Part shown: positions 26,919-30,006 of the stretch, in pieces
How positions within the stretch are numbered: position 1 is the first letter of the stretch
How the letters are laid out: every line of letters starts with the position of its first letter
Source of the DNA: Ignavibacteriota bacterium
GTDB lineage: Bacteria > Bacteroidota > Ignavibacteria > UBA10030 > CAVZMI01
Length of the DNA stretch: 64,000 nt
Direction: 5' to 3'
Assembly (NCBI GenBank): GCA_963835935.1
Contig: CAWIHK010000006.1
Coordinates: 44,119-108,118 of the forward strand
The notes under the pieces: model-generated
What the model saw: the letters and a program-made list of their open reading frames with translations, nothing else
The model's database searches: none
Told to the model about the DNA's origin: nothing
Made by a program: the position numbers and the translations under genes

Positions 26919-27729
26919 GAGTAAAAAATGAAAGGGAAATAAACCAATGAAGAGATATTTTCTAATACTTCTGACGATTTCTACTATTGCCTTCACTTCC
27001 ATGACATGTCATTCGCCGACCCAGCCGTCGGGAAACGATTCTTTCACAATAGAGCTTGCAGATACTTCCTGCATTGAGGCATGGCTGAATGTTCATCTTG
27101 AGAAATCCTTTAATCAAAGGACAATTGAGATAAAGCGGGATACAGGAGTAGTAATGAGATTTAGCCTTTCCCAAACCGATACGATAGTCTCCGACACTGG
27201 ATTACTTCCGAATAAAGCTTACACCTACATTGCAGAACTGACAAACGGCACAACGGTGGTTAAGACAACCGACCCGCTTTACGTGCGGACGCTGGACACG
27301 ACGAGCAGCAACTTCACGTTTCAGACATTTACGCTCGGCGGTGCGACGAGCAGTGAGCTTTACGACGTGGCAATCATTAATGACACACTCGCATATGCAG
27401 TCGGACAGATTTACGGCTATAACTCTATCGGGCAGATTGACCAGCAACCGTATGGTGTAGCGGTATGGAACGGACGGCAATGGAGTCTTCGTAAAGTGTA
27501 CGCGTACACTCAACAAGGATACCTTGAAAATATTCGGCCAATTACAGGTGTATTAATATTTTCTGTAACGGATATTTGGCTCGCTGATGGCAACGTGTAC
27601 CATTGGAATGGGCAAGATTCAATACTTACCCCCTATTGGATTAGCGGATATCCAGGAAACTCCAACCCAGTCCTGGGGCCAGGTCAAGGTGTGAACAAAC
27701 TGTGGGGAACGTCTGCTCAAAATATTTAT

Positions 27730-27740
27730 GGGGGGGGGGG
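27730..27740 (+). repeat. G11 homopolymer at the left IS110 junction
   Basis: atttatggggggggggggtaaatgg read directly; unusual in AT-rich DNA. Confidence 0.8.
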
Positions 27741-27744
27741 TAAA

Positions 27745-27981
27745 TGGTGGCCTTGTTAGGCAACCCATCTGGCTTCGCCCGATTCTTGTTTAAGAGAAAC
27801 TCTTTTACATTAACCTGTATAAAATAAATACAATGTTCTTCAGAATTATGACCGAAGCCGCATTGGCGCTTTTCAAAGCCCGTTGGTTAGGTTGGTCCCG
27901 GCTGTTTTCAGTTTTTATATTGGTGGCATAGACCCCGTTTGGAAGAGTTCCATACTCTAAAACCGTCGGCTAAAGAACATC
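27745..27981 (+). ncRNA. Candidate IS110 bridge (guide) RNA in the 5' non-coding region of the element
   Basis: Position upstream of the recombinase gene, where IS110-family bridge RNAs are reported; several local stem-loops; not verified. Confidence 0.3.
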
Positions 27982-28017
27982 GTGCTTTTTTTCATGTTTA
28001 ATGTAAGGAGTTCTTCA

Positions 28018-29388
28018 ATGAAAAAAAAGAATCAAAAGAACAACGACAAAATTATCCGCATTGATGCACTCAAACAAATCAATCTCAATGCCGCAGGCGT
28101 TGATGTTGGCGACAGTCAAATGTATGTCGCTGTTCCTGAAGATCGCGATGAACAGTTCGTGCGTGTTTTTGGAACGTTCACACGCGATCTAGTCGCGATC
28201 GCCCAATGGTTCAAACAATGCAACATCACTACTGTTGCAATGGAGTCAACCGGCGTCTATTGGATACCTCTGTTTGAAATTCTTGTCGAACACGGCTTCG
28301 AGGTTCTCCTGGTCGATGCTCGTAAAATCAAAAATGTCTCCGGCAGAAAAACGGATATCCAAGACTGCCAATGGATTCAACAACTGCTTACCTACGGACT
28401 CTTGAACGGTTCATTTATTCCGGAACAGAACATTCGCGCTCTGCGCGATATGATTCGCCATAGGGCAAATCTTCTGCGCTTCCGTGCTTCTCACATCCAG
28501 CATATACAAAAAATTCTTCAACTGATGAATCTTAAACTCACCAACGTTATCTCGGATGTTACCGGCACCACCGGTATGCACATCCTGCGCTCTATCGTTA
28601 ACGGCAACACCGACCCAAAATACTTAGCATCATTTCGCGATCCACACTGTAAAAAATCTGAGCAAGAAATCGAACTCTCTCTCGAAGGAAATTATAGAAA
28701 AGAATACGTCTTCCAGCTCAAACAAATGCTCGATCTCTATAACTATTACTCTTCCCTGATTACCGAACTGGATAACGAAACCGAAACCATGTATCGACAA
28801 CTTCCTTCTCTCGTCAACCCCAAAGAACGTCCCCTGAAACCATTAAAACGAAATGTCAATAAGAAAGCCAGGAATGCGCCTTCTTTCGATCTGCGTACTC
28901 AACTCTACCGCATCACCGGCGTTGACCTTGTCCAGGTTGATGGTCTCAATACTTCTACTATCCAGGATATTATCACCGACATCGGCACAGATATGTCGAA
29001 ATGGAAAACCTCAAAACACTTCTGCTCCTGGCTTAGACTTGCTCCCAATAATAAAACAACCGGCGGAAAAGTTTTTTTCTCCCATATTCCAAAATCAAAA
29101 AATAGAGCCAATAAAGCATTACGTTTGGCTGCATTCTCTCTTGCCAATGCTAAGTGTGCCCTCGGCGCTTTCTACAGAAGAATCAGATCCAAGTATGGCG
29201 CTCCGATGGCTAACATTGCCACCGCTCACAAACTTGCACGCATTATCTATAAAATGCTTAAAGATAAAGTCGAGTATGTTGATCTTGGTGAAGACTATTA
29301 TAATGAAAAATATAAAGCACGTCTTGTACGCAACCTTAAAGACAGAGCTAAATCTTTAGGTTTTCATCTCGTCCCTGCTTCACCTTAA
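28018..29388 (+). CDS. IS110-family transposase (DEDD RuvC-like N-terminus + Transposase_20 C-terminus)
   Basis: 'AAGVDVGDSQMYVAV', 'AMESTGVYW', 'DARKIKN…GRKTDIQDCQWI', C-terminal '…SWLRLAPNNKTTGGK'; ORF track gives 27982..29388, start likely at MKKKNQ. Confidence 0.8.
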   Translation: MKKKNQKNNDKIIRIDALKQINLNAAGVDVGDSQMYVAVPEDRDEQFVRVFGTFTRDLVAIAQWFKQCNITTVAMESTGVYWIPLFEILVEHGFEVLLVDARKIKNVSGRKTDIQDCQWIQQLLTYGLLNGSFIPEQNIRALRDMIRHRANLLRFRASHIQHIQKILQLMNLKLTNVISDVTGTTGMHILRSIVNGNTDPKYLASFRDPHCKKSEQEIELSLEGNYRKEYVFQLKQMLDLYNYYSSLITELDNETETMYRQLPSLVNPKERPLKPLKRNVNKKARNAPSFDLRTQLYRITGVDLVQVDGLNTSTIQDIITDIGTDMSKWKTSKHFCSWLRLAPNNKTTGGKVFFSHIPKSKNRANKALRLAAFSLANAKCALGAFYRRIRSKYGAPMANIATAHKLARIIYKMLKDKVEYVDLGEDYYNEKYKARLVRNLKDRAKSLGFHLVPASP

Positions 29389-30006
29389 TGAGTTTCTTGG
29401 AAGGTATAATGGCAACACCTGGACAAAGCTGACAAGCGGAACGACAAATACGATACAGGATATTTGGGGCGAAGTGGATGCAAACACGGGGAAGCGAAAC
29501 ATATTTTGTGCGGTATCAGCAGCATATACTACGGCAGGCTCGGAAATACTAAGTATCGACGAGAACAATAATGTGAGCGTCGTGCCATGGTTTCCGAACC
29601 GGAGTGCATACTCAGTTTGGTTCAAAAATATATCCAGAGTTTATGCCTGTGGAGATGGAGTATTGGAACGGGAGCCAAATCTGCAATGGAAAGAAATTGC
29701 GGGAACGACGGTGATTCACGCCTTTACAAATCACCTCAGGGGTCAGGGAAATAACGACTTGTTCGTTGTAAGTGATTTTGGAGACATTGCCCACTACGAC
29801 GGGATGCACTTCCACCTTTATCCTCAAGTTACGAATGCTCTGGGTACGCCGGAATTATTTTCATGCGCCATGAAGAATAATACGGTTATTGCAGTTGGTC
29901 TCACTTCAAGCCGTGCAGTCATTGTAGTGGGATATAATTCATCTCAGGCAGTTATCACAATAGGTAAAAGACAATGACAGGAGGTGAACTATGTTAAAGT
30001 ATATTT

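What the first reader, a model, noticed from the sequence alone, without database searches (positions are those of the whole stretch)
27720..29400. IS110-family element inserted into a beta-propeller lipoprotein gene at a G11 tract; candidate bridge RNA in its 5' non-coding end
**Seen in sequence.** The gene 26947..27759 ends '…LWGTSAQNIYGGGG' followed by KWWPC*. After about 1.65 kb its reading frame resumes at 29390 ('EFLGRYNGNTWTKLTSGT…') and runs to 29977. The intervening DNA has IS110 hallmarks: about 240 nt non-coding, then a DEDD/Transposase_20 recombinase (28018..29388) ending 1-4 nt from the junction, with no inverted repeats. An 11-G homopolymer (27730..27740) sits exactly at the left junction.

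**Established knowledge.** IS110-family elements insert without target-site duplication, and IS110-group members encode a structured guide ('bridge') RNA upstream of the recombinase.

**Inference.** 27745..27981 is the candidate bridge RNA. The G-tract may be part of the target or donor core, or a hypermutable tract.
Basis: partly seen in the sequence, partly recalled or inferred. Interest (0 to 1): 0.5.

Follow-up and report, generated by a model that had tools for sequence, protein, structure and literature searches.

The report
IS110-family insertion sequence with bridge RNA
A 1.6-kb RNA-guided "jumping gene" of the IS110 family, carrying its own structured guide (bridge) RNA, has split a surface-lipoprotein gene; it is a new member of a known kind, and the run of 11 Gs next to it is a separate frameshift in the gene, not part of the element.

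Summary
The core of the finding holds, but the coordinates and the role given to the G-tract do not.

- **Element.** A 1,644-bp IS110-family element (27760..29403) interrupts a ~461-aa lipoprotein gene. An AG core dinucleotide sits at both junctions (27758-59 and 29402-03). An orthologous empty site (L158) aligns gap-free once the element is removed.
- **Corrections.** 'EFLGR' at 29390-29404 is the element's right end, not the gene resuming. The element does have 8-11 bp subterminal inverted repeats.
- **Bridge RNA.** The left end encodes a ~146-nt RNA (27834..27979): a closing stem plus two arms, each with an internal loop. Covariation across 67 relatives supports the fold. Hypervariable loop segments match each element's own left target flank plus core (arm 1) and its own right end plus core (arm 2).
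- **Polarity.** Guide order, long inverted repeats and a Thr-Gly nucleophile motif resemble the IS1111 group. The RNA's upstream position resembles the IS110 group.
- **This insertion.** The site matches only the left target guide, so it is a half-site.
- **G11 (27730-40).** It lies 17 nt outside the core and puts the gene out of frame. The IS-free ortholog carries G8, also out of frame.

Verdict: a new member of a known kind, of modest interest.

The parts
26947..27759 (+). 5' part of the interrupted lipoprotein gene (signal peptide plus Cys21). It is in the correct frame only up to the G-tract. The annotated stop TAG 27757-59 is an out-of-frame stop that overlaps the core.
27730..27740 (+). 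G11 homopolymer inside the lipoprotein gene. It is a +1 frameshift relative to the conserved protein (G10 or G13 would be in frame). It lies 17 nt left of the core and is not part of the element.
27752..27759 (+). Left target half CTTGTT (LT) plus core AG (27758-59). This is the left junction.
27760..29403 (+). IS110-family element, 1,644 bp counting one copy of the AG core. Left end 258 nt, tnp, right end 13 nt plus core.
27767..27783 (+). Left-end hairpin (ATCTGGC-TTC-GCCCGAT) between the right-donor nucleotides and the left subterminal repeat. An equivalent hairpin with different sequence is present across the family.
   Evidence: by eye; not scored
27795..27802 (+). Left subterminal inverted repeat AGAAACTC.
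27834..27979 (+). Bridge RNA core. P1 27834-43/27970-79. Arm 1: P3 27850-54/27893-97 and hairpin P4 27864-82. Arm 2: P2 27898-906/27961-69 and hairpin P5 27921-37. A U7 run follows at 27986-92.
27855..27863 (+). [quoted passage not shown]
   Evidence: family z=6.2. It is poorly matched at this particular site.
27883..27892 (+). 3' side of the arm-1 loop (UUGGUUAGGU): the left-target guide (6 nt) + core AG + 2-nt handshake. It has the same sense as the target top strand, so it would pair with the bottom strand.
27938..27945 (+). 3' side of the arm-2 loop (UUUGGAAG): the left-donor guide + core. It has the same sense as the right end CTTGGAAG.
28018..29388 (+). Recombinase/transposase gene, 456 aa. 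D29, E76, D113, D116 and T348-G349 align with IS621 D11, E60, D102, D105 and S241-G242.
29390..29397 (+). Right subterminal inverted repeat GAGTTTCT.
29396..29403 (+). Left donor half CTTGGA (LD) plus core AG (29402-03). This is the right junction.
29404..29977 (+). 3' part of the interrupted lipoprotein gene (GTATAATGGC... = (R)YNGNTWTKL...).

Best explanation
27760..29403 is an intact, recently mobile IS110-family element. Its DEDD recombinase would be guided by a bridge RNA transcribed from the element's own left end.

The RNA (27834..27979) is a closing stem holding two arms.
- **Arm 1, target-binding loop.** Its 3' side (UUGGUU-AG-GU) reads like the top strand of left target + core + the first two nucleotides of the element, so it would pair with the bottom strand. 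[quoted passage not shown]
- **Arm 2, donor-binding loop.** Its 3' side (UUUGGA-AG) reads like the element's right end + core.

Recombination between the circularised element and a target at the shared AG core inserts the element without duplication, leaving AG on both sides.

In this window the element landed in ...CTTGTT-AG-GTATAA... inside a lipoprotein gene. That site matches the left target guide (8 of 10, plus one possible G.U) but not the right one, so it is a half-site or off-target insertion. The preferred site of this lineage is ..TGGTT-AG-GCGGC.., which lies in a repeated intergenic sequence.

**Shown:** the boundaries, the empty site, the RNA fold covariation, the guide/flank matches and the conserved catalytic residues.

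**Inferred:** that the RNA is made and bound, the circular intermediate, the order of strand exchange, and the identity of the right-donor guide.

The G11 tract is an independent +1 frameshift in the host gene.
For: **Family.** Pfam PF01548 + PF02371. NF033542 at 229.6 bits, above the 140-bit cut-off. Alignment to IS621 keeps D/E/D/D and places T348-G349 on S241-G242. The family has T (88) or S (29) at that position.

**Boundaries.**
- A 99.94%-identical copy with a different left flank (L001).
- At least eight independent relatives share homology only over 27750/55..29404.
- The empty-site ortholog L158/L159 aligns gap-free when 27760-29403 is removed.
- The restored protein ...IYGGGVNGGLVRYNGNTW matches homologues LYGGGINGGLAWYNG and LYGVGVNGG...

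**RNA.**
- Iterative nhmmer finds the ~120-nt core next to tnp in 123 hits over 157 loci.
- The five-helix structure counted on a structure-naive MAFFT alignment of 67 sequences gives 86.8% paired against 68.4% shuffled (0/500). Slid controls reach at most 43%. 33 of 37 pairs show double changes.
- The covariance model hits the window once (121 bits). It also hits 61 of 76 genome loci and a Citrobacter plasmid that was not in the seed.

**Guides.**
- An element's own left-target guide has an exact match of 8 nt or more upstream in 58% of loci, against 0.8% with swapped guides.
- Its own left-donor guide has a match of 7 nt or more at the tnp stop in 81% of loci, against 5%.
- Positions LT-5..-1 + core match at 85-100%, and the next 2 nt match the first two element nucleotides at 83% and 56%.
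- The right-target guide is complementary to core-G + right flank with z=6.2.

**Not a tnp leader.** The same RNA lies downstream of tnp in 16 relatives, with guides still matching both ends.
Against: - No expression data. No sigma-70-like promoter was found on the + strand.
- Rfam has no matching family, so identity with published bridge-RNA models could not be tested.
- The right-donor guide could not be identified.
- At this insertion the right-target guide pairs with at most 2 of 7 positions, so guide-directed choice of this site is only half explained.
- The left junctions of the distant loci were located by the guide match itself. That is partly circular, and is mitigated by the swapped-guide control and by the independent empty site for the window.
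- Related sequences inflate shuffle statistics. Single-sequence folding is unremarkable (z -2.0 and -0.8).
Confidence: 0.85

Rival explanations
1. The conserved upstream RNA is a cis-regulatory leader of the transposase mRNA (translational or transcriptional control), not a DNA-recognising guide.
For: It lies directly 5' of tnp. Its closing stem is followed by a U7 run at 27986-92. A 10-nt inverted repeat links 27986-95 to the start codon region 28018-27 (I16).
Against: In 16 related elements the same RNA lies downstream of tnp. Its hypervariable loop segments track DNA outside the element (left target flank) and the far right end. Swapped-guide controls give 0.8% and 5% against 58% and 81% observed. 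A leader has no reason to do either.
Confidence: 0.05
2. One reading: the G11 tract is part of the insertion site: a target or donor core at the left junction.
For: It lies within 20 nt of the element, and G runs this long are unique in the window.
Against: Other copies and relatives have no G-tract at their left junctions. The IS-free ortholog already carries a G8 tract at the same codon positions. The guide segment matches CTTGTTAG, not the G run. Family-wide covariation stops about 6 nt left of the core.
Confidence: 0.02
3. The element is an inactive relic and the apparent guide matches are leftovers. The gene was already dead (frameshifted), so the insertion is neutral debris.
For: The host gene is frameshifted independently of the IS. 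The site matches only half of the guide. Some relatives (L079, L080, L084) carry a ~75-nt deletion that removes the target loop.
Against: The ORF is intact with all catalytic residues. Over the element proper (window 27755..29404) a second copy in another context (L001) is identical; the 99.94% figure reflects one mismatch, which lies in the flank. A Logan unitig breaks exactly where the two contexts converge. The RNA helices are intact in the window copy.
Confidence: 0.08

Closest known systems
IS621 (E. coli) bridge recombinase and bridge RNA (Durrant et al. 2024, PMC11208160; Hiraizumi et al. 2024, PMC11208158)
   Same: - DEDD RuvC-like domain plus Tnp domain, with a nucleophile in a (S/T)G loop.
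- Guide RNA encoded in a long left end, with a short right end.
- Two internal loops, one for the target and one for the donor.
- A 2-nt core present at both junctions, and no duplication.
- Extra 'handshake' nucleotides that match the non-cognate DNA.
   Different: - Only about 19 bits of direct sequence similarity (E=0.005).
- 456 aa against 326 aa.
- Core AG, not CT.
- Thr instead of Ser at the nucleophile position.
- Guide order within a loop is reversed: the top-strand guide is 5' and the bottom-strand guide 3'.
- The handshake is attached to the bottom-strand guide.
- 8-11 bp subterminal repeats instead of 2-3 bp.
- The RNA is closed by a long P1 stem.
IS1111-group elements with seekRNA (ISEc11, ISPa11, ISKpn4; Siddiquee et al. 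2024, PMC11187229)
   Same: - The top-strand match lies 5' of the bottom-strand match in the RNA.
- Subterminal inverted repeats of 7-17 bp.
- A TG variant of the SG motif occurs.
- Relatives of the window element carry the RNA downstream of tnp, as IS1111 elements do.
   Different: - In the window element the RNA is upstream of tnp.
- The transposase is 456 aa (IS1111 family: 330-350 aa).
- The left repeat sits ~36 nt inside the end, behind a hairpin, rather than a few nt from the tip.
- No sequence comparison with named IS1111 members was possible here.
ISEc21 (IS110 family, upstream non-coding region; PMC11187229)
   Same: Upstream non-coding region encoding the guide RNA. It targets a specific sequence inside another mobile element. 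A relative of the window element on Citrobacter/Klebsiella plasmids likewise sits in an IS3-family gene.
   Different: ISEc21 has the bottom-strand match 5' of the top-strand match, which is the opposite order. Its transposase is 358 aa.

Membership tests
IS110 family (DEDD transposases / bridge recombinases, sensu lato) | N-terminal RuvC-like DEDD domain with all four acidic residues | tested here: met
   PF01548 E=1.9e-20. D29, E76, D113, D116 align with IS621 D11, E60, D102, D105.
IS110 family (DEDD transposases / bridge recombinases, sensu lato) | C-terminal Tnp domain (PF02371) with P-x4-(S/T)-G nucleophile loop | tested here: met
   PF02371 E=1.3e-7. APNNKT-T348-G349 aligns on IS621 S241-G242. 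The family has T in 88 and S in 29 of 120 homologues.
IS110 family (DEDD transposases / bridge recombinases, sensu lato) | Curated family model above its cut-off | tested here: met
   NF033542 'IS110 family RNA-guided transposase', 229.6 bits against a cut-off of 140.
IS110 family (DEDD transposases / bridge recombinases, sensu lato) | Insertion without target-site duplication; the same core dinucleotide at both junctions | tested here: met
   AG at 27758-59 and 29402-03. The empty-site ortholog aligns gap-free after removal of 1,644 bp. AG (rarely AA) is the core in 54 family loci.
IS110 family (DEDD transposases / bridge recombinases, sensu lato) | Structured ncRNA in a non-coding end with two internal loops | tested here: met
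   Five helices, 33 of 37 pairs with compensatory changes, 86.8% paired against 68.4% shuffled and at most 43% slid.
IS110 family (DEDD transposases / bridge recombinases, sensu lato) | Loops base-pair with both strands of the target and of the donor (four guides) | tested here: inconclusive
   Left-target and left-donor guides are strongly supported. The right-target guide is supported family-wide (z=6.2) but not at this site. The right-donor guide was not found.
IS110 family (DEDD transposases / bridge recombinases, sensu lato) | Circular intermediate; RNA bound by the recombinase | not testable with these tools
   Needs read-level data or experiments.
IS110 group (as opposed to IS1111 group) | Long left end with the RNA upstream of tnp; short right end | tested here: met
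   Left end 258 nt, right end 13 nt.
IS110 group (as opposed to IS1111 group) | Only short (2-3 bp) subterminal repeats (PMC11208160) | tested here: not met
   8-bp perfect repeat (10 of 11) in the window. 7-12 bp covarying repeats across the family.
IS110 group (as opposed to IS1111 group) | Bottom-strand guide on the 5' side of the loop and top-strand guide on the 3' side (PMC11208160, PMC11187229) | tested here: not met
   The same-sense (bottom-strand) guides are on the 3' sides. The complementary guide is on the 5' side.
IS1111 group | Subterminal inverted repeats of 7-17 bp | tested here: met
   Caveat: the left repeat lies 32-38 nt inside the end, behind a hairpin.
IS1111 group | Long non-coding region / RNA downstream of tnp | tested here: not met
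   It is upstream in the window element. It is downstream in 16 related loci carrying the same RNA.
IS1111 group | Top-strand match 5' of the bottom-strand match in the RNA (PMC11187229) | tested here: met
IS1111 group | Transposase of 330-350 aa related over its full length to that of IS1111 | tested here: inconclusive
   The length is 456 aa, which does not fit. Relatedness over the full length to the IS1111 transposase could not be tested, because no reference IS1111 sequence was available here.
Phase-variable (contingency) homopolymer locus, considered for the G-tract | Long homopolymer inside a surface-protein gene whose length sets the reading frame and differs between strains | tested here: inconclusive
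   G11 in the window and in an independent sample (L161). G8 in orthologs L158/L159. Both are out of frame by +1, while the downstream frame stays open. No in-frame allele and no within-sample length variation was seen.

The most novel reading that the evidence does not exclude
This ~455-aa transposase clade may carry a bridge-RNA class that is a mirror image of IS621. It is found here in Ignavibacteria-like, Bacteroidota, Chloroflexota, Cyanobacteria and Chlamydiota genomes and on Enterobacterales plasmids. Its features are:
- a P1-closed two-arm RNA;
- the top-strand guide on the 5' side and the bottom-strand guide plus handshake on the 3' side;
- an AG core;
- a Thr or Ser nucleophile;
- long subterminal repeats, with a hairpin inserted in the left end.

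The handshake position implies that the bottom strand is exchanged first. The same RNA module has moved between the left and right ends within one clade. It would therefore bridge the IS110/IS1111 dichotomy rather than belong to either group.
Probability: 0.2. Interest if true: 0.6.

Novelty: new member of a known kind. Interest (0 to 1): 0.35.

Why it matters
**Annotation.** The two ORFs 26947..27759 and 29474..29977 are halves of one ~461-aa lipoprotein gene. The gene is inactivated twice, by the IS and by a +1 frameshift in a G-tract. The 15 nt that look like coding sequence (EFLGR) belong to the IS.

**Bridge-recombinase biology.**
- The locus adds a fully delimited natural example: an empty site, a second copy, and a half-site insertion.
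- It comes from a large-transposase clade whose RNA combines the IS110-type position with IS1111-type polarity and repeats.
- It gives a covariance model that finds the RNA in many phyla and in clinical plasmids.

Such mixed cases bear on how the RNA module moved between element ends. They also show that off-target 'half-match' insertion occurs in nature. None of this overturns current understanding.

Tried and rejected
1. **Rfam.** Scans of the region at E<=10 and of the whole window at gathering thresholds gave no ncRNA family apart from two tRNAs. A scan of five relatives' loci (element plus flanks) also gave nothing.
2. **Single-sequence folding** of the 5' end gave uninformative z-scores and a wrong topology.
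3. **UUGGUGGC as target guide.** I first read 27920-27 as the left-target guide because it matches TGGTGGC in the flank. I rejected this because the motif is invariant across the family and forms stem P5.
4. **1,651-bp deletion.** Removing 27754..29404 restores the frame with G11 (...GGGGKWWPYNG). I rejected it because it leaves a 7-nt gap against the empty-site ortholog and fits homologues worse.
6. **Right-donor guide.** Position-by-position covariation from six anchors and end-anchored pairing tests gave only weak signals (z 2.6-3.5). There were hints of UGG/CCA pairing 5-10 nt inside the left end. This is unresolved.
7. **Promoter scan.** No + strand sigma-70-type site was found.
8. **Source organism.** The cluster look-up returned no names, and the genome is not among the GTDB representatives searched (best 54% identity).
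9. **Preferred target in the window.** A search for TTGGTTAGGCGGC gave nothing beyond chance.
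Full report
**1. What is in the sequence.**

ORF 26947..27759 ends ...NIYGGGGKWWPC*. G11 at 27730-27740 is the only G/C homopolymer of 8 or more in the window.

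A 456-aa ORF at 28018..29388 is preceded by AAGGAG. It carries DEDD_Tnp_IS110 (1.9e-20) and Transposase_20 (1.3e-7). It scores 229.6 bits on NCBIfam NF033542 'IS110 family RNA-guided transposase', against a cut-off of 140.

Against solved structures its only hit is IS621 (E=0.005). In that alignment D29, E76, D113 and D116 fall on D11, E60, D102 and D105. T348-G349 falls on the nucleophile S241-G242. Among 120 homologues this position is T in 88 and S in 29.

The element is single-copy in the window.

**2. True boundaries.**

- A Logan contig (L001) carries a 99.94%-identical copy with an unrelated left flank...GAGCGCCTG|GTTAGGCAACCC.
- Nine or more metagenomic relatives (76-84% nt identity) share homology with the window only from 27750/55 to 29404. 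All end ...ATGAGTTTCTTGGAAGG. 'EFLGR' (29390-29404) is therefore the element's right end, not the gene.
- Family-wide comparison (section 4) places a 2-nt core, AG, at 27758-59 and 29402-03. The element is then 27760..29403, 1,644 bp.

Independent proof comes from a related organism's ortholog without the IS (L158, and L159 from a second sample). It reads ...TAAATGGCGGACTTGCCTGGTACAACGG.... The window minus 27760-29403 aligns to it without gaps apart from the G-tract length.

Full-length homologues of 430-510 aa cover both halves. The restored sequence ...NIYGGGVNGGLVRYNGNTW... matches their LYGGGINGGLAWYNG and LYGVGVNGG.. motif.

**3. The G-tract.**

Restoration is in frame only with G10 or G13. 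G11 gives the stop at 27757-59. The G11 tract plus the left junction is reproduced in an independent sample (L161, ERR10755942).

The IS-free ortholog has G8, again one nucleotide too many. Its downstream frame stays open for about 190 codons. A more distant homologue encodes GGG without a homopolymer.

The tract therefore belongs to the lipoprotein gene, 17 nt from the core. It may be a contingency tract, a frameshifting site or an old lesion. The data do not decide.

**4. The RNA.**

*Detection.* Iterative nhmmer with 27825-27995 found a conserved ~120-nt element next to the transposase in 123 hits over 157 fetched loci. It is usually upstream. In 16 loci it is downstream of tnp.

*Structure.* A MAFFT alignment of 67 diverse copies (A2) shows a closing stem P1 and two arms. 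Arm 1 is P3 plus hairpin P4. Arm 2 is P2 plus hairpin P5. Each arm has an internal loop. RNAalifold recovered P3, P4 and P5.

Counting my five-helix structure on the same alignment, which was not fitted to any structure, gave:
- 86.8% of cells paired, against 68.4% in shuffles (0 of 500 reach it);
- at most 43% when partners are slid by 1-3 columns;
- 33 of 37 pairs with changes on both sides.

*Coordinates and model.* Window coordinates are. A covariance model (R1) hits the window once, at 27828-27992 (121 bits). It also hits 61 of 76 genome loci from many phyla and a Citrobacter freundii plasmid copy that was not in the seed (E=5.6e-11).

*Rfam.* Rfam 15 has no matching family.

**5. Guides.**

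*Bottom-strand guides (3' sides of the loops).*
- The 3' side of the arm-1 loop is hypervariable with the pattern N6-AG-N2. In each element it equals the top strand of the left junction.
- The 3' side of the arm-2 loop (UUUAGG-AG type) equals the right end at or just after the tnp stop.
- With swapped guides as control, an element's own guide gives an exact match of 8 nt or more upstream in 58% of 62 loci, against 0.8%.
- It gives a match of 7 nt or more near the stop in 81%, against 5%.
- Column-wise, LT-5..-1 and the core match at 85-100%. The two nucleotides after the core match the first two nucleotides of the element at 83% and 56%, not the target. This is a handshake-like feature (concept from PMC11208158).

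*Top-strand guide (5' side of arm 1).* This side is complementary to the top strand of core-G + right target (mean 3.48 of 7 pairs against 2.53; z=6.2).

*Order.* The order 'top-strand guide 5', bottom-strand guide 3'' is the one reported for IS1111-type seekRNAs. It is the reverse of ISEc21 and IS621 (PMC11187229, PMC11208160).

*Unresolved.* A right-donor guide could not be identified.

*The window element.*
- Left-target guide UUGGUUAGGU against target CTTGTTAGGT: 8 of 10, plus one possible G.U.
- Left-donor guide UUUGGAAG against CTTGGAAG: 7 of 8.
- Right-target guide ..GCCGC.. against GTATA: essentially unmatched.

Relatives with the same guides sit in ..TGGTT-AG-GCGGC.. within a repeated intergenic sequence. 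The window insertion is therefore a half-site event. That behaviour has been described experimentally for IS621 (bioRxiv 10.64898/2026.08.31.748434).

**6. Other anatomy.**

A subterminal inverted repeat (AGAAACTC 27795-802 with GAGTTTCT 29390-97) is conserved. It covaries at 7-12 bp across the family. The right copy abuts the left-donor nucleotides. The left copy lies 32-38 nt in, behind a hairpin whose sequence varies between relatives.

P1 is followed by a U7 run (27986-92). No sigma-70-like promoter was found.

**7. Classification and novelty.**

Family membership (IS110 sensu lato) is met on every sequence criterion tested. Group assignment is mixed:
- RNA position and end lengths are IS110-like.
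- Repeat length, guide polarity and the TG motif are IS1111-like.
- The 456-aa size fits the long-transposase IS110 subgroup mentioned in PMC11187229.

Published work already reports bridge RNAs or seekRNAs in both groups, and exceptions in RNA position. I therefore file this as a new member of a known kind. There is a modest chance that the clade's mirrored architecture is not yet described.

**8. Verdict.**

It is an IS110-family element with a genuine, comparatively well-supported bridge RNA. The boundaries needed correction by 19 nt (left) and 15 nt (right). The G-tract is unrelated to the element.

Noticed in passing
window 27730-27740; L158:6805-6812; L159; L161:1661-1671: The poly-G tract in the lipoprotein gene is out of frame by +1 in two lineages: G11 here, reproduced in a second sample, and G8 in the IS-free ortholog from two samples. 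The downstream frame stays open in both. Possible phase-variable tract or programmed frameshift site in an Ignavibacteria-like surface protein.
   Followed up: partly
L009, L012, L013, L018, L129-L131, L134, L137-L139, L147, L149-L151, L156: In these relatives (about 40-45% aa identity, including Chlamydiota MAGs) the same RNA lies downstream of tnp. The left-target guide matches a site ~150 nt upstream of tnp, and the left-donor guide matches ~100 nt beyond the RNA. The RNA module has changed ends within one transposase clade.
   Followed up: partly
window 27767-27783 and the first ~30 nt of the left end in most loci: A hairpin of variable sequence sits between the first ~6 nt of the element and the left subterminal repeat (for example L104 GATACCGAAGC..GCTTCGGTATC-like, L093 AATGACGC..GCGTCATT). 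Its role is unknown.
   Followed up: no
L079, L080, L084 (aligned): These relatives carry a ~75-nt deletion that removes most of arm 1 (the target-binding loop) while keeping tnp and arm 2. They may be defective or trans-dependent copies.
   Followed up: no
L085:1496-2362; L108; L079/L080/L084 left flanks: The preferred target of this lineage (...CATTCCGTCAGCTTGAGCGCCTGGTTAG|GCGGC...) lies in a sequence repeated several times, in both orientations, in those contigs. L108 also holds extra partial left-end copies.
   Followed up: partly
L162 (Citrobacter freundii pCAV1857-105, NZ_CP037736.1 96.2-97.9 kb); also Klebsiella and Enterobacter plasmids: A 47%-identical relative on clinical Enterobacterales plasmids carries the same RNA (E=5.6e-11), apparently with an AA core. 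By reading the flank by eye (...ERDILKK, A-rich run), it appears to sit at the end of an IS3-family orfA, near that family's usual slippery site. One related hit in the plasmid search lies under a feature annotated as an IS3-like ISEc36 family transposase.
   Followed up: partly
window 31815-33095 (- strand): A second mobile element lies 2.4 kb away: a 426-aa Mutator/IS256-type transposase (PF00872, 3.6e-41). The short ORFs flanking it (30751-31744) suggest it interrupts another gene. Its ends were not defined.
   Followed up: partly
window 26133-26918, 26947-29977, 33983-35044: Paralogous lipoprotein genes share the ..VG..G.I..Y[ND]G..W repeat and have no Pfam match. Two are in tandem (26133-26918 and 26947-29977); the third lies ~4 kb further on, beyond the second transposase (33983-35044).
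   Followed up: no
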